Shown piece by piece: positions 31,383-47,561 of a stretch of DNA of 64,000 bases. Each line of letters starts with the position of its first letter. Within the stretch, counting starts at the first letter, position 1. The notes beneath the pieces are model-generated. The model had not been told where the DNA came from, searched no databases, and saw only the letters and a program-made list of their open reading frames with translations. The DNA is from Minisyncoccota bacterium (GTDB lineage: Bacteria > Patescibacteriota > Minisyncoccia > Phycocordibacterales > UBA9973), in contig JBAZOQ010000003.1 of assembly GCA_041648595.1 (NCBI GenBank), positions 1,042 to 65,041 on the forward strand. The letters run 5' to 3'. The position numbers were made by a program, and so were the translations under genes.

Positions 31383-32427
31383 CTACAATTGGCTTTATAA
31401 TATCACCTAGCTTTTCCAAAGAAATAAAGGTAACGCCGTTTGATTCTCTTAAAGCTCCTACAACTTTTACTTTGTCACCAGTTTGAATAAAATCTTTTAA
31501 AGACCAAATTCCAGTAACAACATCTATTTTCTGATTCTCACTTTCTATAGAAAAAACTCTTGGTAAATTTGAAGAAAGTGAAGTATCAAGCGCTGTACCT
31601 TCTATGGAAATATCGTGTATCTTTTTAGAACCAACAACTATTGGTATTTTTTTATTAGGATCATTAGATGGCAAAGCACAGTTAAGTGAAAGCTTAATCC
31701 CAGGATTCAGCATATAACGCCTACGTCTAGTAAACATAATTTTTGCTTCTGCTTCAGTAAGGTTGAATTTCTTCATATAATACTCAACATACTTCTCAAA
31801 CCTTGATGTATCACCAAAATCAATACCTATTTTATTTCTTAGATTTTCATCCCTTTCTAGAGATTCAACCACCCGTTGCAAATCATTTGGACCATAAATT
31901 ATTAAATCTATATCAGGCTTATTGGAATAAGTAAAATCTTTCATAAACCGAGAGCCAAATAATCCAAAATCTACATTTTTAAATTCCGACATTAAACGCA
32001 TTAAGGATTCTGTGTCTTCTGGTTTACCATGTTCTAAAAATAGCTTAAGATTGTCTCTCCCTCGTAGTATTTGAGTATTATTCTCGAAGGGCATAGCTAA
32101 AAAGCTTAATTCTGACGAAGGATCATAAACAACATAATAATTCATTTCTTCTGAACTTGAAGCTGCTTCTATCCCCTCCTTATATCCATATAACTTTTTT
32201 TTCCACTGCTCAGGTCCATGACTTTTAAAATAAGTTATTGCAGTAGGAATCCTGATAGTTGATTCTTGCCCTTTTTCATTAACCACTTCACAAACAAAAT
32301 TATCCTGAACAAAGCCAATTCGTTCTATATCTTTTTCAATATGAATTAAAGCATCATAAGGACGTGGATCGTCTTCTTTCTGTTCCCTAACTTTATCAAC
32401 GAAGAATTTAGGTGTTTCCTGGGGCAT
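31372..32427 (-). CDS. Nucleotidyltransferase-domain protein (Pol-beta superfamily)
   Basis: GS…DID motif (FGLFGSRFMKDFTYSNKPDIDLIIY). Confidence 0.5.
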   Translation of the reverse strand: MPQETPKFFVDKVREQKEDDPRPYDALIHIEKDIERIGFVQDNFVCEVVNEKGQESTIRIPTAITYFKSHGPEQWKKKLYGYKEGIEAASSSEEMNYYVVYDPSSELSFLAMPFENNTQILRGRDNLKLFLEHGKPEDTESLMRLMSEFKNVDFGLFGSRFMKDFTYSNKPDIDLIIYGPNDLQRVVESLERDENLRNKIGIDFGDTSRFEKYVEYYMKKFNLTEAEAKIMFTRRRRYMLNPGIKLSLNCALPSNDPNKKIPIVVGSKKIHDISIEGTALDTSLSSNLPRVFSIESENQKIDVVTGIWSLKDFIQTGDKVKVVGALRESNGVTFISLEKLGDIIKPIVDEK

Positions 32428-32430
32428 ATT

Positions 32431-33414
32431 TTAAATATTATCTAAATTTATAACAAGTCCATTCAAACCAATTAGTTTTGTATCTTTACTAGTTGATTCT
32501 TTAATAAACTCATTTACTTTTTGTGGGTATTCAGGACCCAAACATCCATGAGGATTAAAATGCTCAAAAAGACCAAGTTTGACTTTTGAATCGCGCAAAA
32601 CTTCTACAGCATCAGATACAGTAGAGTGATAAAAATTATGCTTAGTATATTTTCTAAACTCCACATCATGTAAATTAAAAACCAACAAATCAATTTCACT
32701 GAAAACTTTCTTTAATCTTTCATTAAAAGTTCCTGGTCCTTCTATTTCTTTTTTATCTGCAATCTTCTCCAATGCTGATAGTTCTCTGCCGTCAGCAGTC
32801 TTATATGTTGCATTAAAACCAGTGTCTCCAGTATATCCAACTTTTAATCCATTTAAATCTAGAACGAAACCAAAAGATCCACCAATTGAATGTACAACCT
32901 CTATGGGCTTAAGTTTAATATTGTTACCTAAATTTATTTCTTCTGCCTTATTAAGCACGGTAAGTTTATTATCACTTGATGGAGAGAAGTGATATTGACC
33001 AATAACTTTTTCATCTAAAGTATTTTGTGACATCAAAACATTCAACCCAGAATTCTCACGATAAGAAGCCATTTCAGCAATTAAATCAGCATCATTACTA
33101 TGATCAATATGAGCGTGAGAAATAAATAGAGTGTTGGTGCGAGCTAAATTTACACCAATTCTTTCCGCTCTTTCTAGTATGTTGATTCCAGGATCAACCA
33201 TCATTTCTAAATCGTTGTATTTAATATAGAACCCAGACCATAAAGGCTTTAAGGCACTATTCCACTTATAGTCAGGATTAAATTGTCTACCCAAAAAAGC
33301 TATAAAATTACCTTCTATCTTATGGGGCATTTCTCCGAGTTCTTTTCTGAGAGTATTAGATACATCTCTTGCTTCTTTTGATAGTTGTTTTAACTCAGTG
33401 AAATCAATAGGCAT
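32431..33414 (-). CDS. Metallo-beta-lactamase fold hydrolase
   Basis: HxHxDH motif (SHAHIDHSND). Confidence 0.65.
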   Translation of the reverse strand: MPIDFTELKQLSKEARDVSNTLRKELGEMPHKIEGNFIAFLGRQFNPDYKWNSALKPLWSGFYIKYNDLEMMVDPGINILERAERIGVNLARTNTLFISHAHIDHSNDADLIAEMASYRENSGLNVLMSQNTLDEKVIGQYHFSPSSDNKLTVLNKAEEINLGNNIKLKPIEVVHSIGGSFGFVLDLNGLKVGYTGDTGFNATYKTADGRELSALEKIADKKEIEGPGTFNERLKKVFSEIDLLVFNLHDVEFRKYTKHNFYHSTVSDAVEVLRDSKVKLGLFEHFNPHGCLGPEYPQKVNEFIKESTSKDTKLIGLNGLVINLDNI

Positions 33415-33421
33415 AAATTTT

Positions 33422-34066
33422 TTATTTTATATTAAGGTTAATAGCTATATCTTCTAACATTTTGTTGATTATTGCAACTAAAGATTTGGAATTATCTAAT
33501 AAATAAACTGTCGGAAAATTCATTTCTTCCTTTAAAATTTCATCAACTTTTAATAAATTAATAAATTCTTTGTCAGAAACATTACGTGGATTTCTTGTAT
33601 CACTATTTTTTAATTGTTTCCTATACTTTTTTGGATCGGTAACTAGAATATGAAATTGAATTATTTGATTATTTAAGTAACGAGTCAACAACTGAACACC
33701 TTCTATAATACAAGAAACACCACCTGCATTATACTTTTTAATCATGAAATTAATCACTTTACTTATAATTAAAGATTGCTTTTGTAAATCAATAACACTA
33801 AGGGGAGAAAAGTAATTATTCATCTTTAGAAAATCTTTATTTTTTGGTTCCATTGAAATCAATGTCTTCACTATCGCACCCAACCCAATACGTTGTTTTA
33901 TTTCTAAAATATTCGACAGGTGAAAAGCAAGAGTGGTTTTTCCCACACCATTAATACCAGAGATTACAATAATTAACGGACGCTCTCCATTTTTTATATG
34001 TTTTTTAATTTTATTCGCTAAATTATAATTTATTTTTTCCATAAACTGAGCTAAAAAGTTTCTCAA
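33422..34066 (-). CDS. P-loop NTPase / small-molecule kinase-like protein
   Basis: Walker A ISGINGVGKTT. Confidence 0.5.
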   Translation of the reverse strand: MRNFLAQFMEKINYNLANKIKKHIKNGERPLIIVISGINGVGKTTLAFHLSNILEIKQRIGLGAIVKTLISMEPKNKDFLKMNNYFSPLSVIDLQKQSLIISKVINFMIKKYNAGGVSCIIEGVQLLTRYLNNQIIQFHILVTDPKKYRKQLKNSDTRNPRNVSDKEFINLLKVDEILKEEMNFPTVYLLDNSKSLVAIINKMLEDIAINLNIK

Positions 34067-35225
34067 CTTTTTTTATTTGTTTATTTAATTCGAATTCGTT
34101 TTTGACAACGGAGTATGCATTTTTCACTAAACGATCTCTCAATTTTCGATCTTTGTAAAGTAGATTAATAGATGAAGCAAGTTTCTTGGGATTTTTAATT
34201 GGCACCAATAAACCCGTTTTATTATGTTTAACTACTTCATTAACTCCTGGAATATTTGTAGCCAAAACTGGCTTCTTCATAGACATTCCCTCTAATAAAA
34301 CTATACCTAATCCTTCAGAATACGAAGGCAATACCATCATATCAGAAAGCGCATAAACCTTTGGCATATCTTCAATAAGAAATTCATCCACCTTTATCTT
34401 AACATTATTTTCTATCTTTAGTTCCTTAATAAGCTTTAAAACAAGTTTACTAAATTTATCATTTGTAGAAAGGTTGCTTGTTGGTATTAAAAGTTTAATA
34501 TTTGGAATTGTTGTTTTCTTTAACATACTAACTGCTTTTAAAATATCTAAAATTCCTTTTCTTTCAATCAATCTAACAGGACAAAGAACAATAAAATCCT
34601 CGTCGTTAAAACCATACCCTTTCCTGTTTATTTTTATTTCAAAAGAAAACTTTTTCATATCTACGCCATAATAAATATGGTGAGCATTTTTCACTTTTTC
34701 ATCAATATTCTTTTTTACTGTATTTAAATAATTATTACTACAAGCTAAATAAGCATCAAAAGATCTTTGTTTAAAAATAAATCTTGCTATAGATAGTTCA
34801 AACTCCAAATTTCCAGGCCAAATACCAACAAGCTTATTTACATCCAACTCTGGAGTAGAATGATAGCTAAAAATATGTTTAGCTCGTAAACCATCTTTAA
34901 TCATAGAAATTAACAAACAAGGAATATAACCATTTGAATAAATAATATCAGGATCAAACTTTTTTAAAACTGTAAATGATTCTATCAATAAGTCCCGAAA
35001 GGGGGCTTTCATTTTTATTGCTTCGCGAAAAAGAGGCATTCTAATAACCTTAAAATAAGATGATTTATAGTCTTTAATTCTTAATTTTAAAGAATCAGGA
35101 ACTTCCCCCGTCAAAACTAAAACTTCATGTCCCAACTTACCCAACCCGACAGCTAGGTTATATTGATACGTTTGGGCTCCCCCTATAATAGGCGGAAAAC
35201 TATGAGCGTAAATACAAATTTTCAT
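34023..35225 (-). CDS. Glycosyltransferase family 4 (GT-B, group 1)
   Basis: N-terminal HSFPPIIGGAQ…, C-terminal EGLGIVLLEGMSMKKPVLATNIPG (E-X7-E region). Confidence 0.8.
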   Translation of the reverse strand: MKICIYAHSFPPIIGGAQTYQYNLAVGLGKLGHEVLVLTGEVPDSLKLRIKDYKSSYFKVIRMPLFREAIKMKAPFRDLLIESFTVLKKFDPDIIYSNGYIPCLLISMIKDGLRAKHIFSYHSTPELDVNKLVGIWPGNLEFELSIARFIFKQRSFDAYLACSNNYLNTVKKNIDEKVKNAHHIYYGVDMKKFSFEIKINRKGYGFNDEDFIVLCPVRLIERKGILDILKAVSMLKKTTIPNIKLLIPTSNLSTNDKFSKLVLKLIKELKIENNVKIKVDEFLIEDMPKVYALSDMMVLPSYSEGLGIVLLEGMSMKKPVLATNIPGVNEVVKHNKTGLLVPIKNPKKLASSINLLYKDRKLRDRLVKNAYSVVKNEFELNKQIKKVEKLFSSVYGKNKL

Positions 35226-35284
35226 ATCTTTATTAAAACGTCGTTAGTTACTTAATAATTTATCCATGTTTTTACTAAAAATTT

Positions 35285-36193
35285 TTAATCTTTTACCCAA
35301 AAATCACTCGGTAGGGATTTTATAAAATTAAAAACTTTTGATAAATATTCCAACAAGCCAGGATATTCTAATACATCTTCCAATAATTTAGTTTGTTCTG
35401 AATTTATAGAATCTGGTAAAAATTCTTTATCCACCCCATTTATATTTGTAGTAAAAATTTGTCTTTTAGGATCAAATTTTACAAATTGAATCACCTCTTC
35501 ATCTCTTGTATTTAATATTTTTAATTCACGAGGTACTTGTATAAAATGTTTAGTTAATTGCTGGCACCACTCAACACCTAATGGATGAATATCAAATAAT
35601 CTTTCTCTGCGTTTATTTTTTTGTGGATTATACGCTTTCTGAATAAATTTAGCACCTTCAACGCTTGCTATTTCAGAATTCCAATCCTTATAAACAGAAG
35701 ATACTCCTGGGATAACTGGTACTGGTTTAGAAAATTTCCAACTTGGCTCTAAAACAAATACTTTTAAACCATTGGATTCATTGGCATACATTGGAGTAAT
35801 ATGCCTAAATTTTAAAAACTCAGCTTGTCGTTTAGTATAATCTTTTTCTTCTGGAAACCTCCCAATAATTGTCGTAGGTACTCCAATGTCTGCTAACATT
35901 TTTTGACACAATATAGCAAAATCAACACAATTGCCAGATTTTTCACTTTGAATAAAATCAGGGCTTTCATAATCCCATTTTTCCAATAACTTCACACTAC
36001 CAGACGGATCAGTCTGGGTTTCATTTGCCAAATCTGCAAGTTTCCCAAAATGAGAAAAGGTATTAAAACGATAATCTTCTGAAATCCGTAACAAAACTTC
36101 AGATATTTTCCTGAGTTGAGATTCTAAATTTTCTCTATCAATTTGTAGGAATTGCTTATCTATGTTTATAACTCTTTCAGGTCCTTTTTCCAT
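35285..36193 (-). CDS. Hypothetical protein
   Basis: 302 aa ORF in operon. Confidence 0.3.
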   Translation of the reverse strand: MEKGPERVINIDKQFLQIDRENLESQLRKISEVLLRISEDYRFNTFSHFGKLADLANETQTDPSGSVKLLEKWDYESPDFIQSEKSGNCVDFAILCQKMLADIGVPTTIIGRFPEEKDYTKRQAEFLKFRHITPMYANESNGLKVFVLEPSWKFSKPVPVIPGVSSVYKDWNSEIASVEGAKFIQKAYNPQKNKRRERLFDIHPLGVEWCQQLTKHFIQVPRELKILNTRDEEVIQFVKFDPKRQIFTTNINGVDKEFLPDSINSEQTKLLEDVLEYPGLLEYLSKVFNFIKSLPSDFWVKD

Positions 36194-36202
36194 AGTTAAA
36201 AA

Positions 36203-37252
36203 TTATTTTAAAGTATTATTAAAAATTCCAGATTTAGCTATAAAATGTTTGTTTTGTAATATCCATTCATACATAGTTTTTATCCCTTGTTTGGGAGTAA
36301 TACATGGAACCCAATTAAAATCTTTTTTAGCAGATGAAATATCTGAAATATAAACTTTCTGATCTGCCAACCGCCAAGGCTTTAATTTATAACCAAACTT
36401 TTTACCAGAAATACTTTTTAAAATTTCAAAAAACTCTAAAATCGAAACCGCAGATTTTAAGCCCCCGCCAATTGTATAAGCTTTCCCTCTTGTTTTTTTA
36501 ATATTTTTGAAAGCTAGATCAAAAGCATTTACTAAATCATCAATATGTAATACATCTCTAACCTGCTTACCATTGCCATATAAAGTTAAAGGGTGATTAA
36601 AAACCAAAGAACTAATAAACCAAGCAAGCCATCCTTGCCCCTCTATACCAAATTGTCGAGAACCATAAATACATGACTGTCTAAAAACTATAGTATTTAA
36701 TTTATAAATTCTTGCATAATCTAAAACATATTGATCCCCGCATCCCTTTGAGCATCCATATGGACTACAAAAATCTAATGGTTGTTTTTCAGAAATACCT
36801 TTTATGTTTTTAAAAACATATTTACTTTTTTCTTCTCGGATAGGTATATCAGCTAATTCTCCCATTACTTTATTTGTACTAGAATAAATTAAAGAGGCTT
36901 TCGGCGCTCCACTTCTCATTGCTTCTAGCACATTGAAGGTTCCCAGAGCATTTATTTCAAAATCTTCTTTTGGATTTATGATTGATCCAGTTACTGTCGT
37001 TTGAGCTGCTAAATGTAAAATTAAATCTGGTTTAAATTCTTTAAAAACCTTAGCCAAAGAATCCCCGTTTCTAATATCTATTTTCTTAAAAGAAAATTTA
37101 CCTTTAAGTGTTCGTAGCCACTTTAAATTTTGTTCAGAACCAACTCTACTTAAATTATCTACCGCAAGAACTTGATAGTGTTTATTAAGGTAATATTCAG
37201 CGACGTTTGCACCAATAAAGCCACAACCACCAGTGATGAGAATTTTATTCAT
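36203..37252 (-). CDS. NAD-dependent sugar epimerase/dehydratase (extended SDR)
   Basis: GGCGFIGANV Rossmann motif, YxxxK (YGCSK). Confidence 0.8.
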   Translation of the reverse strand: MNKILITGGCGFIGANVAEYYLNKHYQVLAVDNLSRVGSEQNLKWLRTLKGKFSFKKIDIRNGDSLAKVFKEFKPDLILHLAAQTTVTGSIINPKEDFEINALGTFNVLEAMRSGAPKASLIYSSTNKVMGELADIPIREEKSKYVFKNIKGISEKQPLDFCSPYGCSKGCGDQYVLDYARIYKLNTIVFRQSCIYGSRQFGIEGQGWLAWFISSLVFNHPLTLYGNGKQVRDVLHIDDLVNAFDLAFKNIKKTRGKAYTIGGGLKSAVSILEFFEILKSISGKKFGYKLKPWRLADQKVYISDISSAKKDFNWVPCITPKQGIKTMYEWILQNKHFIAKSGIFNNTLK

Positions 37253-37292
37253 ATATTCTTGTATTTAACCATTTTTTATGAATAAAATCAAT

Positions 37293-37751
37293 TTAAGTGG
37301 CAATATAAACCTCCAACTTTTCAATAATACCATGATCTTTCTTCCCTCTTGTATTAATACGATATCCGTCTTTTACACTAAATCTATATGCTTTCAAAAA
37401 ACTCTTTGGTGTTAAAGTAAGAGTATCTCTGTTTTTATACTGAACCAACTCTAAAAAATCATTAATTATTTTATCTCTTATTAATATATTTTTTGAAGCA
37501 AACCCAACCTTCTTACCCTCAAACTCAAATTCATGTTCTTTTTCGTTGATTAAAGAAAATCCCCTAGATTCAAAAAGATTTTTAAATTCTTCCCATCTAT
37601 CATTAACAAACTCATCTTCTATTAAAAGATCAATGTCTTCAAAATCCTTAAAATTACCAAGATAATTAGCCACACCAAACGAACCATAAATTACTGGTTT
37701 TATATTTAACTCTTTTAGTATTTCTAAAATTTTAGATAAAAATTCATTCAT
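37293..37751 (-). CDS. Minimal nucleotidyltransferase-fold protein
   Basis: YGSFGVANYLGNFKDFEDIDLLI (GS…DxD). Confidence 0.45.
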   Translation of the reverse strand: MNEFLSKILEILKELNIKPVIYGSFGVANYLGNFKDFEDIDLLIEDEFVNDRWEEFKNLFESRGFSLINEKEHEFEFEGKKVGFASKNILIRDKIINDFLELVQYKNRDTLTLTPKSFLKAYRFSVKDGYRINTRGKKDHGIIEKLEVYIAT

Positions 37752-37777
37752 AAATTATCTTTTTATAGTTGTTGTGA

Positions 37778-38269
37778 TTATTTTTTAAATTCATTAAACA
37801 CCATAATATCTCTTAGTGAGCTATCTTGCGGCACCTTTTTATATTCTGCCTTAATTCTTTTCAAGGCTGTTTCTATTTTTATTTCTATCGGTTTCGTTCC
37901 GACATTCAATTCTGCATCAGTAAGTTTCAATTTTTTCTGCCTACCTTTTGTTTTTGCCATATAGTATGTTATGTGTAAAACATATTCTTTTCTAATATTT
38001 TCTATGAAACCAATACATTTTATATTATTAATTTCATAGCCTGTTTCTTCTAATATTTCACGTTTTATCGCCTTGATATTGCTTTCATTCTTCTCCACAG
38101 TTCCACCAGGCAATTTTAATATATGCTTTATTCCATAACCATCTTCTTCTATGCAAACTAACGTATCCTTGTCTTTATAAATTAAACCTCTAACTTTCTT
38201 ACGAATTGAAAGTTTAGCTATCTTCTCTCTAAAAAAATTATGTTCATTTATAATTCCAATTTTTTTCAT
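37778..38269 (-). CDS. NUDIX hydrolase
   Basis: Nudix box GGTVEKNESNIKAIKREILEETGYE. Confidence 0.75.
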   Translation of the reverse strand: MKKIGIINEHNFFREKIAKLSIRKKVRGLIYKDKDTLVCIEEDGYGIKHILKLPGGTVEKNESNIKAIKREILEETGYEINNIKCIGFIENIRKEYVLHITYYMAKTKGRQKKLKLTDAELNVGTKPIEIKIETALKRIKAEYKKVPQDSSLRDIMVFNEFKK

Positions 38270-38730
38270 ATAATATTTTTTAACTCAGACAATGTTTCTA
38301 TTATAAAAGTCGGAATACCAGTTTCATCATTGGGTAATTCATTAGCAAAAGGTCCAGCTTGTAGCCAAGCTGTCGGGTGACCATTTTTATTTCCATATTT
38401 AATACTTTTTACTATTCTGTCATCCACAAATAATATTTCGTCTCTTGATACATTTATTTTTTTTACTAAGTTGTCCAACATCTCATCTTTTTCTTTAACG
38501 TCAGACACTTCTAGCATATCAAGATATCTACCCAACGATGAATTTTCTATTTGTTTTTTTCTTTCTTCTACGCTATCTCCAGTGAGGGGTCGCGCCAAAG
38601 AAGCAACGCACATTTTATAACCTTTTTGTTTGCAATATAATAAAACATCTTCTGAATCAGAAATTTCTTTTTTATTATCAACATCATATAAAGTTCTTCC
38701 CCAATCAAAAATTATTGCTTTTATATTCAT
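38266..38730 (-). CDS. HAD-like hydrolase (degenerate motif I)
   Basis: N-terminal IIFDWGRTLYD, later LFVDDR. Confidence 0.4.
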   Translation of the reverse strand: MNIKAIIFDWGRTLYDVDNKKEISDSEDVLLYCKQKGYKMCVASLARPLTGDSVEERKKQIENSSLGRYLDMLEVSDVKEKDEMLDNLVKKINVSRDEILFVDDRIVKSIKYGNKNGHPTAWLQAGPFANELPNDETGIPTFIIETLSELKNII

Positions 38731-38735
38731 AGAAT

Positions 38736-39623
38736 TTAAAATAATTCCTTAAACATTTTGTATCCCTTCTTAAACTTACCACGTCCTCCTTGAAATGGGG
38801 AAATCATTGTCCAAAGAGGGATTCTTTTATAATACATCATTGACCGTTTTAAAAAATCTTTGTCTTTATGACCTTTGTAATTTTTATACACTTCTAGGGT
38901 AAATTTCTCTCCATAATCCCACATTTCAGTAAAATCTCTCGCTGGATCATCTATTTTTCTATCAGAAAAATCTATAATCCCTGAAATATATTTTTTATTT
39001 TTTCCCAGAAGTATGTGTTTGGAATAAAGATCGTTATGCATAAGCACTTTTTGGGGAAATTTTAAATAATTTTTAAATTCTTTTAAATAGTCATTTATCA
39101 AAAGCTGATCTTTTTTTGAAACTCTTGGAAAAATGTATTTATTTGTGTTGATTATTAACTCTTTATATTGTTTTTGGCTATTTACTTTTTTGATATCAAA
39201 TCGTTCGGCAACCTTAAGGGGGGTTTCATGCAAAGAAGAAAGAAGGTCCGCAATTTGTTTAGCAAGCGTATGTTTTGCTTTAGTGGACACCAACTTAAAC
39301 ACTTTTTTCCTTAACTGTATTCCGGGAATCAGAGAATACCCAGCAAAACTTTTATCTTTTGCAATATAAGTATATTGAGGAATAGAAATACTAACTTTTT
39401 CCTTTAAATACTCAAGCAGGAGTATTTCTTTTTTTAATGCCTTTAAATATTGCTTGGCTCTAGGAAAACGAAAAACATATTTATTATCCAAAATAATTAC
39501 ATAATGATCCCATCCTTCTATATTATGCTCCACCTTGTCCCATTTTAGATTAGGAAATTCTTTGTGTATTTTGTTTAATAATTTTCTTTTTTCCATAATT
39601 TTTTTTATTTTAAAAACACCCAT
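38736..39623 (-). CDS. Aminoglycoside-phosphotransferase/choline-kinase-family small-molecule kinase
   Basis: Catalytic-loop HNDLYSKHILL and IIDFSD (APH Brenner/DFG-like motifs). Confidence 0.65.
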   Translation of the reverse strand: MGVFKIKKIMEKRKLLNKIHKEFPNLKWDKVEHNIEGWDHYVIILDNKYVFRFPRAKQYLKALKKEILLLEYLKEKVSISIPQYTYIAKDKSFAGYSLIPGIQLRKKVFKLVSTKAKHTLAKQIADLLSSLHETPLKVAERFDIKKVNSQKQYKELIINTNKYIFPRVSKKDQLLINDYLKEFKNYLKFPQKVLMHNDLYSKHILLGKNKKYISGIIDFSDRKIDDPARDFTEMWDYGEKFTLEVYKNYKGHKDKDFLKRSMMYYKRIPLWTMISPFQGGRGKFKKGYKMFKELF

Positions 39624-40042
39624 TTCTTCATTAATTTTCTTGCTTCTTCTGTAAATTTATTTGGGTCTAGATTATATTTAGAAGCAATAAATTTCAATTT
39701 CTCAATTTTTTTTGGATTACGAACTTCTTTTAATTTTACATTCTTATCAATTTTTCTTCCTAAAACTCTATAAAATCCATAACGTAAAGAATATTTTGGA
39801 AACATATACAAAAGTCCTACATAAAAATTAGTTTTACTGAGTGGAAATTCTATATCGGTATGCCCAGACCAGTGTGCTCTAGTGTAAGTATAGGCGACAT
39901 CCGATAATTCACTCCATTTATTTATTAACCCCTCCGCTTCTTCAAGTTCTCGCAGTTCTTCCAAAACATCGGCTTGATGCCAATAATAATCTTTTATTGG
40001 CATGTCTAAAATTGAATGCCATTTGTTAATAATTGTTTTCAT
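39605..40042 (-). CDS. Hypothetical protein
   Basis: 145 aa ORF overlapping the downstream gene by 19 nt. Confidence 0.3.
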   Translation of the reverse strand: MKTIINKWHSILDMPIKDYYWHQADVLEELRELEEAEGLINKWSELSDVAYTYTRAHWSGHTDIEFPLSKTNFYVGLLYMFPKYSLRYGFYRVLGRKIDKNVKLKEVRNPKKIEKLKFIASKYNLDPNKFTEEARKLMKKWVFLK

Positions 40043-40045
40043 ATT

Positions 40046-40492
40046 TTAATTGTGTATATCTATATATCTAACTTTATCAGAGATAATATTTCCTTTTTTA
40101 AAATCTTCCCATAAACCATTGGGTTTGATGGGCGTTGTCCCAGCAGGCTCCAACCAACACACTTCTGCAATTTCATGTGCATGTGTAGTTTTAAGATGCC
40201 CGATATTTAAATAATCTTTTCCATTAGTAATTTCAAAGAAAAATTCAACAGACTGTCTTATCTCTCCATCCATAAAATTATTTATATAAAGCAATCTCCC
40301 AATTTCAGGAATAACCCCAAGCTCTTCAACCATTTCACGCCTTAAACATTCTTTTATATCTTCTTTCCACTCAACATGCCCACCAGGCAAAGCACAAAAA
40401 CTCGTGTCATGTGGATGCTTCACACCCAAAAGCTTACCTTCATAAATAATAATACCCCTTGTTCTAACAACAAATTTTTTATCTTTTTCCAT
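40046..40492 (-). CDS. NUDIX hydrolase (paralog of 10350..10826)
   Basis: GGHVEWKEDIKECLRREMVEELGV; near-collinear similarity to the island NUDIX. Confidence 0.75.
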   Translation of the reverse strand: MEKDKKFVVRTRGIIIYEGKLLGVKHPHDTSFCALPGGHVEWKEDIKECLRREMVEELGVIPEIGRLLYINNFMDGEIRQSVEFFFEITNGKDYLNIGHLKTTHAHEIAEVCWLEPAGTTPIKPNGLWEDFKKGNIISDKVRYIDIHN

Positions 40493-40496
40493 AAAA

Positions 40497-42044
40497 TTAT
40501 TTCTTTTCTTTAGGAGAAACCTCGTCGTCCCCTCCTTCTAATAATTCTAACCCTTTCACTGGACCAAAAGCGTTATTACCTAATTTCCCTTGTATTGATC
40601 CTACAATATTTGCAGTTCCAATAAATATTTTTTCCACTTGCGCATCTCTAACTTTCCAAGATTTTTCAAAAGCTACCCTTTCCTTTGTAATTTGATCTTT
40701 CATTTCTTTATAAGTTTCAACCATTGATTCAACTTGCTGTCTAAATTCATGACTAGTTACATATCCATATAATGTTTCAGCTAAAGTTCCTTGTTTTTCA
40801 GCTTGTGCATTAACTAAAGCAACCTCCAACAGCTGTCTCCTTAATACATGTGAGACAGAGATAGCTAAGGATGGTTTACAAATCCAAACTCCATCCTTAT
40901 TTCCGAAACCTGAAACAGCTTCATCTGGTAATACCATACTTACAATAACTGGAATATGTGCAGCCTCAGCTCTTAAATTTACTTTCAATTTAGGAATCCA
41001 ATCCTTGCCCCAATTTTGCACCCTTTTAGATTCCCATAGTATCACTCCACAAACCTTTCCCGAATTTGATCTTACTTTTTGTCTTACATCTGCCCCCTTA
41101 ACTCCTTTTCCGACTGGTTCGATAATATCTTGCGGAAATGCCTCCTTTAAACTAGCCTCTAGGTCCAATTCTTGCACCTCTCCTTGAAGTTGTTGCGATC
41201 CTTGTTCTGCTTTCCTTTTTGCATCATTTAACTGAGTAATCAAGTCAGCCATTTTCTTTTCACTTTCAAGTTCACGGAAATGATATTCGTCACCTATACG
41301 CTTACTTACTTCATTTTCAATTTTACCCTTTTCTTCTGAAATTTTCCTAGCGACTTCAAGCTCTTGAGTTTTCATTTTTTCATCCAACTCTCTTTCTTTA
41401 TTTAATAGAGATAACTCACGTTTCTGAGCCTCCTTTAGCTTTGCATTTTTTTCTGCAACTTGTTCTTCTAATATTTTTTTTTCTGCTTCTTTCTCTTTTT
41501 CAACATCTTCTAATTTTTTCTGTAATTTTATTGTATCAGTTCCATTTTGTTTAATGGCACGAGTAAAAGCCTCTTCTTCTATACCCTTACGCTCAGCATC
41601 AATTATTTTAGCCTTTTCCAATTCAAAACCCTTTCTCTCTTCTTCAAGTTTTTTTCTTTCCGCGCGAGCCTCAAGAGATTCAGCAGTTGCTTTTTCTAAT
41701 TTCTTATCCTTCTCTTTCATCTGATCCTCTAAAAGTTTAATTTCAGCAGCAGTTTGTTTTTCAGCGGCCACTTGTGCATCTTTCCATAATGCCCTTTTTT
41801 CTATTACAATTTTTTCCGCTACCTTCTTATTTATTTCACTTTGGGCATTTTTCTGCGATTCCTCCAGTTTTGCTTTTTCTTCTGCTATTTCTTTTTTCTC
41901 TTTTGCCATTTCAGCTTCTTTAAGCTTATTCTCTTCACTAATTTCTTTTTTTAGGTTTTCTTCAATTTGATGTGTCAATACATCATCAATTGATATTGCT
42001 GCTTTGCAGTTGGGGCATATAATATTTTTTGTGTCGTTTTTCAT
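40497..42044 (-). CDS. Zn-ribbon + long coiled-coil protein (DUF2130-like architecture)
   Basis: N-terminal CPNCKAAISIDD, ~250 aa E/K-rich coiled coil, conserved C-terminal globular domain. Confidence 0.45.
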   Translation of the reverse strand: MKNDTKNIICPNCKAAISIDDVLTHQIEENLKKEISEENKLKEAEMAKEKKEIAEEKAKLEESQKNAQSEINKKVAEKIVIEKRALWKDAQVAAEKQTAAEIKLLEDQMKEKDKKLEKATAESLEARAERKKLEEERKGFELEKAKIIDAERKGIEEEAFTRAIKQNGTDTIKLQKKLEDVEKEKEAEKKILEEQVAEKNAKLKEAQKRELSLLNKERELDEKMKTQELEVARKISEEKGKIENEVSKRIGDEYHFRELESEKKMADLITQLNDAKRKAEQGSQQLQGEVQELDLEASLKEAFPQDIIEPVGKGVKGADVRQKVRSNSGKVCGVILWESKRVQNWGKDWIPKLKVNLRAEAAHIPVIVSMVLPDEAVSGFGNKDGVWICKPSLAISVSHVLRRQLLEVALVNAQAEKQGTLAETLYGYVTSHEFRQQVESMVETYKEMKDQITKERVAFEKSWKVRDAQVEKIFIGTANIVGSIQGKLGNNAFGPVKGLELLEGGDDEVSPKEKK

Positions 42045-42070
42045 ATTTTTTTATTTTATAAATAATTTTT

Positions 42071-45000
42071 TTAAACAGATTTTGTCCCCCTACAATATGG
42101 AAATTTTGAACAACCATAAAACTGTCCTCTTTTACCTTTTCGAAGAATCATTTTTGAACCACAACGCGGACAATCTTTATCAGAAAGAATTGGTGCTGGT
42201 TTATTGTCTCTATAATTCCTAGATAAACTTTTACAAGGCTTACAAAAACGTCCATAACCACGAATTAAAGTTGGGTCTTTAAAATCAACCAAATCTCTTA
42301 TTTCATGACATTTTGGACACTCTTTTTTTTCTCCATTTTGTAGCCCTTGAATGGTGTTTTGAATACCATTCAATACAGAATTATTTGATGAACGATAATT
42401 TTTTAATAAACTAGTAATTCTTTCATTTAGTGTTATAACAGGGTTAGATCCAATGTTAAATTTATTAATTCGTAAGAATTTATACCCATAACTTTCTAAA
42501 ACTTTCTGACGATACACATCATCTTCGGAATAATAATCTGCATAATTAAACTCATTCACTTGATCAATATCACTAAAATGTTCTGTAAATCCATCATATT
42601 CAATGATAATCTTGTGCTCATTTTGATTTTCATCCTTGTACACGAGCAAGAAATCAACTTTATAATGAGGATGTTTGTAGGTTCGATCAAGTTGCTTAAG
42701 ATACTTTCCAATTTCAAATTGTGGAAAAAACTCAATACTCTCTTTATTATTCTTCCAAAAATCAGTGTCATAAAACCACTTTAAAACCCTCGGTTCCATT
42801 TTTGAGTTTTGGTCCACCTCAGAAACTTCATGTTCTTTCTTTGCTTCCTCTAAAATAAAATTATAATGTCTTAAAGCATCACCAATTGAGCCATTAAATT
42901 TATCAAGTGATTTACTCAGCACAAAATGTATAGTTTCTTTTGCACGACTAAATCCAACATTGAGACGCTGAACTTTTATCTTTCCATCTTCTTCACTATC
43001 AATACTATTAAAATCTTTTATAAAAACACCCCACAATCGATCAGAGTTTTCACTAGCAACCATTGAATAGTAAATTATATCTCGTTCCTCTCCCTGACAA
43101 GTATCAAATGTCATTATCTTTAATTTTAGATTTTCAAAATAAAAATCTCGCTCAGGTAGTTTGCTAATTGCCTCCATAAGTAATTTTTGCTGATTGGTAT
43201 GAGGTGTAATTATACCAACACTTTGGGTTATGTTATTCTCGTGTAATATCTTTAATTGCTTAATGATAAAATCAATCTCGGCTCTATTACTATTTGCAAC
43301 TGGTTCATCCTTTCCGTCATAGTCAACAAAACTAAATTTAATAACATCGTCAATTTTTTTACCTCTAATCTTCATCACTTGAAGGCTGTCTTGATAAAAA
43401 TACTTATTTGAATAAGAAATAATTTCTTTATATCCACGAAAGTGTTTTAGGAGTTGTGTGTTGTAATTTGTTATAAATTCAAAAAACTCAAGTATTGAGG
43501 TCTTAATATCAAATTTCCCAAGCTTTACCATTTTAGAATCTTCTTCAGATACCTGATCACGAAATACTTGTGCTAAAGAATTTAAATATTCCCGATTTGT
43601 TTCAGATCGAGCTTGTGCTGCTTTAATGTTACTAAACTGTTTTCTATCACCAAGAATAAGGACTTTCTTTGCTCTGATCAAAGCTGGAAAGGCTTGTGCG
43701 ATACTTACCTGCGAGGCTTCATCAATAATAACCAAATCAAACAATCCTGCATGTAATGGAATATATTCTGCATAATCTCTAATACCAGCTAATATACAAG
43801 GAAAAGCCTCTTTAAGTTTAAGAAATTGTTCCTTTGGAAATTTCATTTTATTTTTAATAACTTCTCTTAGGGTTTCTGCATCTGCTTTGTTGTTATTATA
43901 GAAATTAATGAGACGACTATCTAAAACATGAGTGACTTGTGTAGTAACTAAGGTTTCTAACTCTTTCTTTTGCCCCACATAACTTAAAGTTGGAATTGCC
44001 CCAAATTTAGAAACCAAAGAATTTTTTAAGATTGCGTAACGTGTTGCTTTATCAAAATCTAAGCTAGTCATAGTGACAAGTCTACTATTCAACATGTCTG
44101 AAAAATTTCCTTTTGAGATTTTTAACTTCTCTATTGAATTAGGGTAAGAATCGAATTCTGGGACAAGTGACAAGAAATCTTTTTCAACAGAGGATATTTT
44201 TTCTTTGTTTTCAGTAAAATCATTGCCAGTTGAAATTAGTTGGGAAAGAACTGAAATATGATCAACCTCCAAATGTGAAATAGTTTTCGTTTGATCTTTT
44301 AAGGCATTATAATAATCACAAATCTCTACAACTCGCTTAATATCATTTATATTTTCATGAGGATTTTGAAAATCTGCTAATGGAAATAGTTCTTTAAAAG
44401 AGTTATTTAAAACCTGAAGCTTGGAACCTCTAAATAAGTATCCAAAAATAGGCATCTTAGCCTCTTCGTAAAAACGAGACCATTTTTTAAGCTCACCTAA
44501 ATCTTTATGAGAAAAAACTTTAAAATGAGATAGTGCTTTAAAATCATGATTAAACCTAAGAGATACATCCTGTGTAATTTGATAAAAAGCTGTAAGAATA
44601 CTGAGTATTTCAAAAAACATATCCATACTTTTTAATGCTTTCAACTCTAAATTTAATATTCTTGAAAGAGAATCATTTTTAATGATATCTGGCAAAGATA
44701 AAAGTAAGGATCTTAAGTCATCAAAAAAGATAACTGCATTCTCGTTCTCAGATAGTTCATCTATATCAAAATCATATTCTTTAGAAGAATAAAATTCTTC
44801 TAAACCACAGAATTCATTAATTTCCTGTAAATCAATACTAGAATATGCTAAAGTTTCAGCTTCAATATCTTCTTTTAATGAATTTGAAATCTTTAAAATG
44901 TTTTCTTCAATAGCTAAATAATCTTTTTGAACTGCATGATGATGGGTTTTTATTTTTTCAATTGATGACTTTGCAAGAATCTGCCCATAAGTATTACCAG

Positions 45001-46723
45001 TCTTTCCAAGTCTCAAGATTGGATTTTGAAAGACTTCCCCATCATCAAGACGACGAACCCTATTCATAGTCTCGGTTATTTTATCTTCAACAACATCAAG
45101 AGCTTCCTTTTTATCAGAAAGAACAAGTACTGACTGATTCTTTAAAATTGCATCAAAAATAATTGCAGTAATTGTATGACTTTTACCAGTACCAGGTGGA
45201 CCCTCTACTGTTATATATTTACAACCTTCTTTTTTTATCGCTGATAAAATCTGAATCTGTTCGCTATTAAGCGGAATTGGGCTTTCGGAAACAAGTCTGT
45301 CGGGGGTTGATGTATCGTCCCATTCTTTTGTTACTTCAGGACTTACAGAAATAGGGTTTTTATGAATAAAATCATCAACTAATGTATTAAATATCTCAGC
45401 AAGTTCTCCGTCACCAGAGCTAAGCTGTTGCAATATTTCTTCATAGTCATTTACAAGGGCTTCGTCTGATTTATCAAACAATGAAAGATAAACTGAATTA
45501 GACGTTCTAACATTTAAGCTTTTTGCTTGTTGGTGATCCTTTGAGTCAAGATCGATATTTTTGTTAAGTCCAAAAAGATTTGTAATTTCATTAAGAATTT
45601 TTTCAAGTATACTATTAGCATTATCTGTCTCTTTAGATAAATAGATTATACGTTCAGTGATGCTTTTAAGACTACCTTTTGTACCTGTTTCCTTATTGTA
45701 TTCTTGCACAATAAACTCAATAGCTTTCTTGTTTATATATATCTGAGAATCAAATTCAATATAAAATACATCGTTATCTCTTCTGAGAGAGAAAGGTGTA
45801 TAAAAAATTGGATATTTTACTTTATTAAAACTAATGTCGCAGAAATAAAGATAAAATTCTTGTTTATCTAAAATTGCTCTGTTTTTATCAATCTCAAAAA
45901 GCTCACTGAATAAATCTCCAACTTGAAATGATTCAAAAAAACTTGTAATTGTATTTTTTGTATCACCCAAGTCTATAACTGATTTAAGTTCTTTTTGAAT
46001 ATTAATCTTCTGTTTAGAAACTAAAACTTTCAATAACTCAGAAACTTTATTCTCGATAAGATTCAAGAAAATTTCAGTCAATTCCTCTTCCATTAAAAAA
46101 ATATCATTCTCGTCACCTATACCAAGATTTTCAATAGATTTTTCAATACTGCCAACAAACGGAAGAACTAAAAAAGTTTTGATGTGTAATGAAGCTGCTT
46201 CAAGAGTTACAGATAAAGCCTTATCATATTCTTTTGAATAAAGAGCAACAGATTTTTCCAAGTCGTCTGTTATGGCGTTAATTAATTCATTTATTTGAGA
46301 ATTTTGGATTTTACCAACCTGTAAAGTTATAAGATCTAAAAGATTTTTTGGAAGATCGCTACGATATACCCCTTTACTTATTGTGCTTAATAAACTTTTA
46401 TTAAAACCGTGAGTAATTAACTTCCAAATTTCTTTTGTAAAAGATGGATATTTTGAAAGATTTATACCAACAAGCAAATTGTCATTGGTCCTATATTTAA
46501 CTGATCGTTTTGGATTTTTTCTCTTATGAAAATCGGTTTCAAGAAAATCCATGAAATATTTAGCAACTTCTTTAACAAAAGCAAGATTACCAATAACACT
46601 AGCTTCTGTCGTATTATTTTCTTGAGTATCAGTTTTCATATTATAACATTTGATATTAAACTCTAAAAAGTATAGCATTTTAGGCTTCATTTTGAAAGTG
46701 ATTTTTGAATAGTATTTTCCCAT
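42071..46723 (-). CDS. Giant SF1 (Upf1/DNA2-like) helicase fused to a DUF559/Vsr-like restriction-endonuclease-fold domain and C-terminal C4 topoisomerase-type zinc ribbons
   Basis: Walker A GPPGTGKSHT, Walker B VIIDEASQV, C-terminal …HKIIIEYDGFTEHF… (E-x-DG-x-x-H nuclease-like), CPKCHE…CKPC and CPRCGSKM…GCSKFPYCRG zinc ribbons; 1550 aa. Confidence 0.7.
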   Translation of the reverse strand: MGKYYSKITFKMKPKMLYFLEFNIKCYNMKTDTQENNTTEASVIGNLAFVKEVAKYFMDFLETDFHKRKNPKRSVKYRTNDNLLVGINLSKYPSFTKEIWKLITHGFNKSLLSTISKGVYRSDLPKNLLDLITLQVGKIQNSQINELINAITDDLEKSVALYSKEYDKALSVTLEAASLHIKTFLVLPFVGSIEKSIENLGIGDENDIFLMEEELTEIFLNLIENKVSELLKVLVSKQKINIQKELKSVIDLGDTKNTITSFFESFQVGDLFSELFEIDKNRAILDKQEFYLYFCDISFNKVKYPIFYTPFSLRRDNDVFYIEFDSQIYINKKAIEFIVQEYNKETGTKGSLKSITERIIYLSKETDNANSILEKILNEITNLFGLNKNIDLDSKDHQQAKSLNVRTSNSVYLSLFDKSDEALVNDYEEILQQLSSGDGELAEIFNTLVDDFIHKNPISVSPEVTKEWDDTSTPDRLVSESPIPLNSEQIQILSAIKKEGCKYITVEGPPGTGKSHTITAIIFDAILKNQSVLVLSDKKEALDVVEDKITETMNRVRRLDDGEVFQNPILRLGKTGNTYGQILAKSSIEKIKTHHHAVQKDYLAIEENILKISNSLKEDIEAETLAYSSIDLQEINEFCGLEEFYSSKEYDFDIDELSENENAVIFFDDLRSLLLSLPDIIKNDSLSRILNLELKALKSMDMFFEILSILTAFYQITQDVSLRFNHDFKALSHFKVFSHKDLGELKKWSRFYEEAKMPIFGYLFRGSKLQVLNNSFKELFPLADFQNPHENINDIKRVVEICDYYNALKDQTKTISHLEVDHISVLSQLISTGNDFTENKEKISSVEKDFLSLVPEFDSYPNSIEKLKISKGNFSDMLNSRLVTMTSLDFDKATRYAILKNSLVSKFGAIPTLSYVGQKKELETLVTTQVTHVLDSRLINFYNNNKADAETLREVIKNKMKFPKEQFLKLKEAFPCILAGIRDYAEYIPLHAGLFDLVIIDEASQVSIAQAFPALIRAKKVLILGDRKQFSNIKAAQARSETNREYLNSLAQVFRDQVSEEDSKMVKLGKFDIKTSILEFFEFITNYNTQLLKHFRGYKEIISYSNKYFYQDSLQVMKIRGKKIDDVIKFSFVDYDGKDEPVANSNRAEIDFIIKQLKILHENNITQSVGIITPHTNQQKLLMEAISKLPERDFYFENLKLKIMTFDTCQGEERDIIYYSMVASENSDRLWGVFIKDFNSIDSEEDGKIKVQRLNVGFSRAKETIHFVLSKSLDKFNGSIGDALRHYNFILEEAKKEHEVSEVDQNSKMEPRVLKWFYDTDFWKNNKESIEFFPQFEIGKYLKQLDRTYKHPHYKVDFLLVYKDENQNEHKIIIEYDGFTEHFSDIDQVNEFNYADYYSEDDVYRQKVLESYGYKFLRINKFNIGSNPVITLNERITSLLKNYRSSNNSVLNGIQNTIQGLQNGEKKECPKCHEIRDLVDFKDPTLIRGYGRFCKPCKSLSRNYRDNKPAPILSDKDCPRCGSKMILRKGKRGQFYGCSKFPYCRGTKSV

Positions 46724-46745
46724 TAAAAATAGTAAAATATGTCAA

Positions 46746-47561
46746 ATGCCAGAATTAACCGATATTACAGAGATAGATATATACAAAGAACCAATATATA
46801 GATTGTGTGATTTTTTATTACAAAAAAAGTATTCAACTGAGGGAAGAGGTCTTAACAGACCTTTCTCTTTTCGTGTTAATGAATTAGCTAACATTTTTGA
46901 ACATAGTGGTAACGAAGAAGAAGAAATGAAAAAAATCAAAACTGAATTATACGGATTAAGCACTGAAACTATTATGACCGAAAATGGAAAACAAAATGTT
47001 ATTGAAATACTCAATTTTGAAACTCTAGAATTATTTTTAGAAAACTTTAGAAATAATGTTGAAGTAAGAATTGGATGCACTAGTAAAAATTTGGAAATAT
47101 ATCAAAAAGAACTTAGAAAACGCACTGAAGCACTAAAAAGAAAATTGGGAGCTGTTTCAGTTGTTGCTATTACAAATGGTGGAGCTTCAATCTCTATTGG
47201 AGAAAAAACAATGGAGACATATAGAAGAAGTCTTCGCCTTCTTCCAATTGCACCATATCTTATACTTCTACTTGCGGGTGAAAGTATCCGACTTCCAAGA
47301 AGATTAATATCCATAGATTCTTTTTGCAAGAAATATCATACAGGAGATGCTGACTATAAAAGAGGTGATCCAGTTGATATTAATTTTCTTCAAAAAATCC
47401 TTACATATATCAGATATGGTTCTGGCTGGGAATCAGAAACACTTATTAAAAGAAAAGCAATTCTTGATTCATTAAATGGTCTAAATACAAAATCTCGCTT
47501 AGAAGAAAATTTTGAAACTGATATTTTTTCAGTAGAAAATAACGTTCGGTGGATTCTATAA
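46746..47561 (+). CDS. Hypothetical protein (first gene of the plus-strand integrated block)
   Basis: 271 aa ORF. Confidence 0.3.
   Translation: MPELTDITEIDIYKEPIYRLCDFLLQKKYSTEGRGLNRPFSFRVNELANIFEHSGNEEEEMKKIKTELYGLSTETIMTENGKQNVIEILNFETLELFLENFRNNVEVRIGCTSKNLEIYQKELRKRTEALKRKLGAVSVVAITNGGASISIGEKTMETYRRSLRLLPIAPYLILLLAGESIRLPRRLISIDSFCKKYHTGDADYKRGDPVDINFLQKILTYIRYGSGWESETLIKRKAILDSLNGLNTKSRLEENFETDIFSVENNVRWIL

What the first reader, a model, noticed from the sequence alone, without database searches (positions are those of the whole stretch)
40497..46723. Two-gene module: Zn-ribbon/coiled-coil protein plus a 1550-aa SF1 helicase–endonuclease–zinc-ribbon giant (candidate uncharacterised defence system)
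Two co-directional genes 27 nt apart, wedged between the inositol operon and an integrated element. The upstream one has a CPxC ribbon, a long E/K coiled coil and a conserved C-terminal domain. The downstream giant has a ~500-aa unknown N-terminus, then Upf1/DNA2-like Walker A/B, then a DUF559/Vsr-like nuclease-fold core (…IIIEYDGFTEHF…) and terminal topoisomerase-type C4 ribbons. Nuclease–helicase giants next to coiled-coil sensors are a recurring theme of anti-phage systems, but this particular pairing is not one I can name as characterised.
Basis: partly seen in the sequence, partly recalled or inferred. Interest (0 to 1): 0.7.

Follow-up and report, generated by a model that had tools for sequence, protein, structure and literature searches.

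The report
Hhe-like helicase-nuclease with DUF2130 partner
A mobile-element-borne giant helicase-nuclease, related in layout to the anti-phage protein Hhe, sits next to an optional second nuclease (DUF2130) that also turns up beside other ATP-driven restriction enzymes, so this is a probable but untested anti-phage module, not a wholly new kind of system.

Summary
Both genes are real and lie on the minus strand. The giant (probably 1522 aa, 46639..42071) is the upstream gene. The 515-aa DUF2130 protein follows 26 nt later.

The giant has an unannotated 445-aa N-domain, an Upf1-like SF1 helicase core split by a hypervariable insert, a Vsr-fold nuclease and two C4 zinc ribbons. This matches the domain order of the anti-phage protein Hhe and the candidate PDC-S37, but it fails both family models.

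The family is large and spread across phyla, with no conserved synteny. Its commonest neighbours are large serine recombinases (33 of 90 loci) and a small XRE repressor directly upstream. It is mobile-element or defence-island cargo, not housekeeping.

DUF2130 directly follows the giant in 6 of 56 evaluable loci (a seventh lies 283 nt downstream). These partners come from at least three DUF2130 subfamilies. Other loci carry DUF2779 or Cas4-like nucleases in that slot, and many carry nothing. DUF2130 also follows PDC-S37, type I and type III restriction genes, but short forms occur in repair and phage-replication contexts.

Verdict: a probable Hhe-like defence enzyme with a facultative accessory nuclease. 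It is a new variant of a known kind, of moderate interest, with function untested.

The parts
42071..46639 (-). Giant helicase-nuclease gene (1522 aa from M29; the open frame extends to 46723, giving 1550 aa)
   Evidence: ORF. The 100% identical database entry is 1522 aa and more than 1000 homologues are about 1520 aa. Alignment A1 has 72% mean column identity.
45305..46639 (-). N-terminal domain (residues 1-445), no Pfam family
44858..45271 (-). Helicase RecA1, first part, with Walker A GPPGTGKS (45179-45202)
   Evidence: AAA_11 E 7e-17. Upf1, IGHMBP2 and Sen1 are the nearest solved chains. The motif is invariant in A1.
44000..44842 (-). Hypervariable insert in RecA1 (residues ~600-880)
   Evidence: Mean pairwise identity is about 0.3 here against 0.6-0.9 elsewhere in the protein.
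42920..43822 (-). Helicase RecA1 second part plus RecA2 (motif II DEASQ at 43709-43723)
   Evidence: AAA_12 E 9e-21 and AAA_30. hhalign probability 99.9 to the PDC-S37 protein of L090 over residues 942-1392.
42440..42793 (-). Vsr-fold (DUF559/MTES_1575-like) endonuclease domain; invariant D1329, E1347, D1349, H1354
42080..42319 (-). Two C4 zinc ribbons (CPKC..CKPC; CPRC..CSKFPYC)
   Evidence: Zn_ribbon_Top1 E 3e-11 for the second ribbon. All eight cysteines are invariant. Positions.
42045..42070 (-). 26-nt spacer between the two genes
   Evidence: Coordinates. No terminator-like site on the minus strand.
40497..42044 (-). DUF2130 gene (515 aa): CPNC knuckle (42006-42017), E/K-rich helical region (~41175-41963), PD-(D/E)XK domain (40542-41270)
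   Evidence: PF09903 E 1e-55. DUF2130 is classed in the PD-(D/E)XK superfamily with unknown function (PMC3424549). E292, D319 and E338-x-K340 are invariant across divergent partners and 31 homologues.
46746..53551 (+). Adjacent integrated element: unknown small genes, primase/helicase-like AAA_25 protein (49450-51477), large serine recombinase (51926-53551)
   Evidence: Pfam and PHROG hits. A serine recombinase is the commonest neighbour of the giant family (33 of 90 loci).
53512..53586 (-). tRNA-Asp, overlapped over 40 nt by the 3' end of the recombinase ORF; probable integration site
   Evidence: ARAGORN and Rfam. No direct repeat marking a left border was found.

Best explanation
The larger gene encodes a member of a large, horizontally mobile family of single-chain helicase-nucleases. 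Its parts are an unannotated N-domain, an SF1B (Upf1-like) motor split by a hypervariable insert, a Vsr-fold endonuclease and two zinc ribbons. The domain order matches the anti-phage protein Hhe and the PADLOC candidate PDC-S37.

It most likely acts as an ATP-driven anti-phage or anti-plasmid enzyme carried as cargo of the serine-recombinase element next to it. The following mechanism is inferred, not shown. The ribbons, the N-domain or the variable insert recognise foreign or aberrant nucleic acid. The motor translocates 5'->3'. The Vsr-type domain then cuts.

The downstream DUF2130 protein is a CxxC knuckle, a long helical region and a PD-(D/E)XK nuclease with an intact E..D..ExK signature. 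It is a facultative accessory nuclease. It is not needed by most family members. It has nevertheless been placed repeatedly just after ATP-dependent helicase-nucleases: this family, PDC-S37, and type I and type III restriction enzymes. It probably processes the DNA ends or structures these motors create, or acts as a second effector.
For: Architecture and catalytic motifs.

Not housekeeping:
- Full-length identity of 53-60% in proteins that their sources label Patescibacteria, Syntrophaceae, Pedobacter and Aenigmarchaeota MAGs.
- No shared flanking genes among 89 loci.
- Three IMG/VR contigs carry it, one beside an integrase and a terminase.
- A Priestia plasmid carries a copy.

Neighbours:
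- Serine recombinase in 33 of 90 loci.
- An XRE HTH of about 70 aa, 5-6 nt upstream, in 17-26 loci.
- HTH_17 and LexA-like regulators.
- Defence candidates PDC-S06, PDC-S48, a Ppl-like ATPase and an R-M methylase.

A hypervariable insert sits in an otherwise highly conserved protein.

Hhe is a single-gene helicase plus Vsr nuclease defence, and its nuclease mutant is inactive (bioRxiv 10.1101/2022.06.16.496414).

DUF2130 link:
- Directly downstream in 6 of 56 evaluable loci, plus one at 283 nt and one upstream.
- Giants 86% identical to this one carry DUF2130 proteins less than 32% identical to this one.
- DUF2130 lies 13 nt after a true PDC-S37 protein.
- It lies inside or after type I R-M operons.
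- It lies after an EcoP15I-like type III Res subunit.
- The same slot holds other PD-(D/E)XK nucleases: DUF2779, PDDEXK_1+RNase_H_2 and PDDEXK_1.
Against: - No functional data exist for any family member.
- The giant fails the Hhe, ProA and PDC-S37 models except over the helicase core.
- Very high conservation over 1500 aa is unusual for defence genes.
- About a third of evaluable loci (17 of 56) have no co-directional downstream gene at all.
- The window copy lacks the usual upstream HTH.
- CPR genomes are compact, so short gaps are weak evidence of co-transcription. DUF2130 is followed 4 nt later by a NUDIX gene of an apparently metabolic cluster.
- Short DUF2130 forms lie in the core rpoC-rpsL..fusA region beside base-excision-repair genes. 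Others lie beside phage DNA polymerase I. The domain therefore has non-defence roles.
- The contexts sampled for DUF2130 are few and were not drawn at random.
Confidence: 0.5

Rival explanations
1. The two genes are independent. The giant is a stand-alone Hhe-like defence gene. DUF2130 is a general recombination/repair nuclease (RmuC-like) that merely lands in the same variable, mobile regions.
For: - Most giant loci lack DUF2130.
- DUF2130 occurs in core-genome repair-like contexts.
- It occurs in phage replication modules next to DNA polymerase I.
- It occurs on rhizobial and Granulicella plasmids beside unrelated defence-like genes.
Against: - The same orientation and immediate downstream position recur with gaps of 4-28 nt in six loci.
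- At least three DUF2130 subfamilies were acquired by near-identical giants.
- The same position recurs after PDC-S37 and after type I and type III restriction motors.
Confidence: 0.25
2. An obligate two-gene defence system, with a coiled-coil sensor plus a helicase-nuclease effector.
For: - Tight spacing with no terminator between the genes.
- The pair is conserved in the closest relatives L009 and L002.
Against: - Only 6 of 56 evaluable loci have DUF2130 directly downstream, 7 counting one at 283 nt.
- Relatives at 78-85% identity (L008, L001, L082) lack it.
- The partner is swapped between subfamilies and for other nuclease families.
Confidence: 0.1
3. The giant serves the mobile element itself, in replication, recombination, transfer or addiction, rather than host defence.
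For: - Strong association with serine recombinases, excisionase-like HTH_17 and LexA/XRE repressors.
- Very high sequence conservation.
- Two whole contigs of about 8.5 kb have terminal overlaps and could be circular.
Against: - It also occurs with only an HTH among metabolic genes (L005).
- The elements carrying it have their own replication genes (AAA_25 primase/helicase-like in the window).
- The nearest characterised architecture is a defence protein.
- Neighbours are often other defence candidates.
Confidence: 0.15

Closest known systems
Hhe (single-gene anti-phage helicase plus Vsr endonuclease; NCBIfam NF042953, PADLOC PDLC02194)
   Same: Domain order: large N-domain, SF1 AAA_11/AAA_12 motor with a long insert in RecA1, then a Vsr-fold MTES_1575-type nuclease. 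It is a single large polypeptide found in variable regions.
   Different: - It scores only over the helicase core: 108 bits against a cut-off of 2000, and 72 bits in PADLOC.
- The N-domain is not recognised as DUF4011.
- The C-terminus has two zinc ribbons instead of DUF3320 (two wHTH).
- It is often preceded by an XRE gene and followed by a PD-(D/E)XK nuclease.
PDC-S37 (PADLOC phage-defence candidate, untested)
   Same: Same architecture. 25% identity over RecA2 plus the nuclease (E 2e-21). A true PDC-S37 protein (L090) is also followed 13 nt later by a long-form DUF2130 that is 55% identical to the window's.
   Different: The window giant gives 143 bits (local) against 1235 bits (full length) for a true member. 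The N-domain and C-terminus differ.
Hachiman (HamA PD-(D/E)XK nuclease plus HamB helicase) and Gabija (GajA/GajB)
   Same: The logic is a helicase paired with a separate nuclease. In Hachiman the helicase senses DNA state and releases the nuclease (abstract of PMC12278908, as listed).
   Different: There is no sequence relation (no PADLOC hits). The helicase here already carries its own nuclease, and the partner is optional.
RmuC (coiled coil plus PD-(D/E)XK nuclease)
   Same: Same two-part build as the DUF2130 protein: an N-terminal long helical region and a C-terminal PD-(D/E)XK domain. That RmuC has this coiled-coil layout is my own recollection; the paper read here (PMC3424549) lists RmuC only as a PD-(D/E)XK family involved in DNA recombination.
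   Different: It is a different Pfam family (no PF02646 hit). The function of both is poorly known.
PrrC anticodon nuclease embedded in the EcoprrI type I R-M locus (from my own knowledge, not tested here)
   Same: An accessory effector gene inserted within or beside an ATP-dependent restriction operon, as seen here for DUF2130 in HsdM-DUF2130-OLD-HsdS.
   Different: PrrC is an RNase with an ABC-ATPase head. DUF2130 is a predicted DNase-type fold with no NTPase.

Membership tests
Hhe | Whole-protein match to the curated Hhe model | tested here: not met
   NF042953 gives 107.8 bits against a cut-off of 2000, covering profile positions 1238-1538 only. PADLOC Hhe gives 71.8 bits.
Hhe | N-terminal DUF4011 domain | tested here: inconclusive
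   No PF13195 hit in the window protein or in six distant family members. hhalign against a DUF4011 N-terminus gives two weak collinear matches (E 0.015 and 0.28).
Hhe | SF1 AAA_11/AAA_12 motor followed by a Vsr-fold nuclease | tested here: met
Hhe | C-terminal DUF3320 (two wHTH) | tested here: not met
   No DUF3320 hit. Two C4 zinc ribbons are present instead.
Hhe | Protects against phage; nuclease residue required | not testable with these tools
   Known for E. coli Hhe only.
PDC-S37 | Full-length match to PDLC05009 | tested here: not met
   143 bits over 928-1194/1550, against 1234.8 bits over 10-1544 for L090.
Mokosh (MkoA/MkoC) | Helicase with a PLD nuclease (MkoC), or MkoA plus MkoB | tested here: not met
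   The MkoC and MkoA hits cover only the helicase core. There is no PLD domain.
Upf1-like SF1B helicases | Walker A, motif II DEASQ and RecA2 motifs; nearest solved relatives Upf1, IGHMBP2 and Sen1 | tested here: met
DUF2130 (PF09903, PD-(D/E)XK clan) | Domain match above the gathering score | tested here: met
   189 bits against 26.7.
DUF2130 (PF09903, PD-(D/E)XK clan) | Catalytic E..D..ExK signature | tested here: met
   E292, D319, E338 and K340 are invariant. Superfamily assignment from PMC3424549.
RmuC | PF02646 match | tested here: not met
   No hit. The resemblance is in layout only.
Hachiman / Gabija | HamA/HamB or GajA/GajB homology | tested here: not met
   No PADLOC hits to these models.
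Large serine recombinase element (context) | Resolvase + Recombinase + Zn_ribbon_recom domains next to an att site | tested here: met
   Domains, PHROG integrase, overlap with tRNA-Asp. The left border was not found.

The most novel reading that the evidence does not exclude
Coiled-coil DUF2130 proteins are a general plug-in second nuclease for ATP-dependent restriction motors. They would dock onto type I HsdR, type III Res, Hhe/PDC-S37-type proteins and this new family, acting as a shared back-up or amplifying effector in the way PrrC relates to EcoprrI. That would give a first function to a domain with thousands of homologues.
Probability: 0.2. Interest if true: 0.7.

Novelty: new variant of a known kind. 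Interest (0 to 1): 0.5.

Why it matters
If the giant is a defence enzyme, it adds a large and unusually well-conserved branch to the Hhe-type helicase-nucleases. This branch has more than 1000 clusters at 90% identity, and its N-domain is found in 471 clusters at 50% identity. It is common in CPR bacteria and is also labelled in one DPANN archaeal MAG; few defence systems from such organisms have been tested.

The sharply bounded hypervariable insert marks a likely specificity region. The repeated placement of DUF2130, DUF2779 and Cas4-like nucleases after such motors suggests a modular rule of motor plus exchangeable PD-(D/E)XK nuclease. It also gives the first testable functional lead for DUF2130. 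A homologue on a Priestia megaterium plasmid makes experiments feasible.

Tried and rejected
- The genome-contig scan with the single protein found only 4 loci. The metagenome scan with an alignment gave the usable sample.
- The context look-up for the Aenigmarchaeota homologue P0068 found nothing.
- A search for a small HTH upstream of the window's giant failed. The 112-aa minus-strand ORF 46742..47080 is a low-complexity antisense artefact of the plus-strand gene 46746..47561.
- The search for att-type direct repeats to define the element's left border found nothing convincing.
- The promoter and terminator scan was not above shuffled expectation.
- DUF4011 homology of the N-domain could not be established.
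- No solved structure is related to DUF2130 by sequence.
- Literature searches found nothing on DUF2130 function, on COG4487 or on PDC-S37.
- Rfam found nothing apart from the two tRNAs.
- Housekeeping RecD/Dna2 reading: rejected for lack of synteny and the patchy distribution.
- Mokosh membership: rejected, because there is no PLD domain.
Full report
**What is there.** The window has two minus-strand ORFs, 42071..46723 (1550 aa) and 40497..42044 (515 aa), separated by 26 nt. A 100% identical database protein from a Candidatus Paceibacterota MAG is 1522 aa, and the listed homologues are nearly all 1505-1530 aa. The start is therefore probably M29 at 46639. The 112-aa ORF just upstream on the same strand is a low-complexity antisense artefact of the plus-strand gene 46746..47561.

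**Anatomy of the giant (1522-aa numbering).**
- Residues 1-445 have no Pfam family.
- The helicase is Upf1-like SF1B. It hits AAA_11 and AAA_12. Walker A GPPGTGKS is at 480-487 and DEASQ at 973-977. The nearest solved chains are Upf1, IGHMBP2, Sen1 and Dna2.
- RecA1 is split by an insert (~600-880). Its mean pairwise identity is about 0.3, against 0.6-0.9 in the rest of the protein.
- The C-terminus has two C4 ribbons, and the second hits Zn_ribbon_Top1.

**Anatomy of the small protein.**
- A single CPNC knuckle is followed by about 260 aa of E/K-rich helix and a DUF2130 domain (E 1e-55).
- DUF2130 is classed in the PD-(D/E)XK superfamily with unknown function (PMC3424549).
- E292, D319, E338 and K340 are invariant in divergent partners and in 31 homologues. 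An active nuclease is therefore likely.

**The giant family.**
- More than 1000 clusters at 90% identity match. The 120 best listed cover at least 96% of the query (one covers 45%), mostly at 57-66% identity, in proteins that their sources label Patescibacteria, Syntrophaceae, Pedobacter and Aenigmarchaeota MAGs.
- The N-domain alone finds 471 representatives at 50% identity. Wherever the listed hits are full-length (1300-1715 aa) it lies at the N-terminus.
- Distant members keep the helicase layout. Three of the six scanned, the shortest ones, lack the ribbon, and none hits DUF4011.
- A 1367-aa member sits on a Priestia megaterium plasmid.

**Context of the giant.** I fetched 89 related loci and clustered their neighbours.
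- Apart from the giant, DUF2130 and the recombinase, only isolated weak matches of window genes occur in these loci. Synteny is therefore absent.
- The commonest neighbour is a large serine recombinase (33 of 90 loci, counting the window).
- Next comes an XRE-type HTH of about 70 aa, 5-6 nt upstream (17 loci by strict position, 26 by cluster). HTH_17 and LexA-like regulators also occur.
- The window copy has no such HTH. It does abut an element with a primase/helicase-like gene and a serine recombinase whose ORF ends inside tRNA-Asp.
- One IMG/VR contig has the giant beside an integrase and a terminase.
- Other neighbours match the defence candidates PDC-S06 and PDC-S48, a Ppl/mad3-like ATPase and a methylase.
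- This is the pattern of mobile-element or defence-island cargo, not of a housekeeping repair gene.

**Is the pair conserved?** Only in part.
- Among 56 loci with at least 1300 nt downstream, the gene directly after the giant is DUF2130 in 6. A seventh locus has it 283 nt away, and one has it upstream.
- In the same slot, 5 loci carry DUF2779, 4 carry PDDEXK_1+RNase_H_2, and 1 carries PDDEXK_1.
- Others carry a kinase, DnaJ, AAA_13 or a recombinase. In 17 loci there is no co-directional gene.
- Giants 86% identical to the window's (L003, L007) carry DUF2130 proteins less than 32% identical to the window's. Relatives at 78-85% identity (L008, L001, L082) carry none.
- The partner is therefore optional and was acquired several times. 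That argues against an obligate two-gene system and for a functional affinity.

**DUF2130 elsewhere.**
- A long form, 55% identical to the window's, lies 13 nt after a 1570-aa DUF4011/AAA_11/AAA_12/MTES_1575/DUF3320 protein. That protein is a full-length PDC-S37 member.
- Others lie directly after HsdM+HsdR, after a LexA/N6_Mtase/Methylase_S set, and inside HsdM-DUF2130-OLD-HsdS.
- In three IMG/VR contigs the order is large protein, DUF2130, AAA_13. The upstream protein identified in one of them (L130) is an EcoP15I-like type III Res subunit.
- In contrast, short forms lie in the rpoC-rpsL..fusA region, in one lineage beside HhH-GPD and AP-endonuclease genes. Others lie directly before phage DNA polymerase I.
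- The domain is thus a general DNA nuclease that is often, but not only, recruited beside ATP-dependent restriction motors.

**Relation to known systems.**
- Hhe is a single-gene helicase plus Vsr-nuclease defence. Its nuclease mutant is inactive, and T7 DNA-metabolism genes appear to trigger it.
- The window giant shares Hhe's domain order but fails the Hhe, ProA and PDC-S37 models outside the helicase core.
- It lacks recognisable DUF4011 and DUF3320 domains, and it ends in zinc ribbons.
- I therefore file it as a new variant of the Hhe/PDC-S37 kind, not as a member.
- No paper in the library gives a function for DUF2130 or mentions PDC-S37.

**Mechanism.**
- Shown: intact ATPase, Vsr-type and PD-(D/E)XK signatures; the mobile context; the variable insert; recurrent adjacency.
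- Inferred: that the giant senses and cuts foreign nucleic acid using ATP; that the insert sets specificity; that DUF2130 acts on the products or as a second effector.
- None of this has been tested experimentally.

**Verdict.** The best reading is a probable Hhe-like defence enzyme with a facultative accessory nuclease (confidence 0.5). The rivals are independent genes (0.25), a function serving the element itself (0.15) and an obligate pair (0.1).

Noticed in passing
window 47870-48160 and 48182-48475 (+): Two tandem paralogous ORFs of about 96 aa (a 128-nt repeat at 73% identity) inside the serine-recombinase element. Neither has a Pfam or PHROG hit.
   Followed up: partly
window 53512-53586 (tRNA-Asp, -) and 51926-53551 (+): The serine recombinase ORF overlaps the 3' 40 nt of tRNA-Asp, which suggests integration into the tRNA. 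No repeat marking the element's left end was found, so it is unknown whether the giant and DUF2130 are inside the element.
   Followed up: partly
window 26384-26713 (-); L090/L091 12556-12870: A 109-aa protein with no Pfam family is 76% identical to a gene about 5 kb from the PDC-S37+DUF2130 pair of a Nomurabacteria genome. That gene lies next to an 84-aa protein with a faint Zn_ribbon_Top1 hit.
   Followed up: no
L020 (8581 bp) and L026 (8413 bp), whole contigs: Terminal direct overlaps of 46 and 96 nt suggest possible circular molecules. One would carry the giant plus a Ppl/mad3-like 1057-aa ATPase. The other would carry the giant plus a DPPY-motif methylase and a 281-aa ORF. No replication or integrase gene was seen.
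   Followed up: partly
L007-L086 (metagenome contigs): Many contigs are only 5-6 kb, holding the giant with a few hundred bases on each side. This suggests assemblies break on both sides of the gene because the flanks vary or are repeated.
   Followed up: no
L101 vs L102, 1-2524: The same type I R-M/DUF2130 island carries HTH_3 plus an SF1/MTES_1575 giant in one sample and HTH_3 plus a PLD-SNF2 helicase at the same position in another. This looks like a cassette swap behind a shared small repressor.
   Followed up: partly
L096-L100: Short DUF2130 genes (369-403 aa) sit in the conserved rpoC-rpsL-rpsG..fusA-tuf region of CPR genomes. In L098-L100 they lie beside an HhH-GPD glycosylase and an AP endonuclease; in L096/L097 they lie beside a hydrolase instead. 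Either way it is a housekeeping-like context.
   Followed up: partly
L110, L117, L128 (IMG/VR): In L110 and L128, DUF2130 directly precedes a family A DNA polymerase. In L117 it precedes an unidentified 682-aa gene at the same spacing. This implies a role in phage replication or recombination.
   Followed up: partly
L002 14585-18447; L129-L131: The order DUF2130 then AAA_13 (PDC-S06-type ATPase) recurs after two different motors, the giant and a type III Res subunit.
   Followed up: partly
window 29402-40492 (-): A tight minus-strand run of NUDIX, an unknown gene, an APH kinase, HAD, NUDIX, a nucleotidyltransferase, an epimerase, GT4, an MBL hydrolase, a kinase-like gene and myo-inositol-1-phosphate synthase starts 4 nt after DUF2130. 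L003 also has a kinase plus NUDIX after its DUF2130, but these are not detectably homologous.
   Followed up: partly
L104 (Priestia megaterium plasmid NZ_CP065336.1, 22497-26600): A 1367-aa family member (36% identity) lies in a cultured host, next to a Y-family polymerase and a YolD-like gene. It is a practical starting point for experiments.
   Followed up: partly
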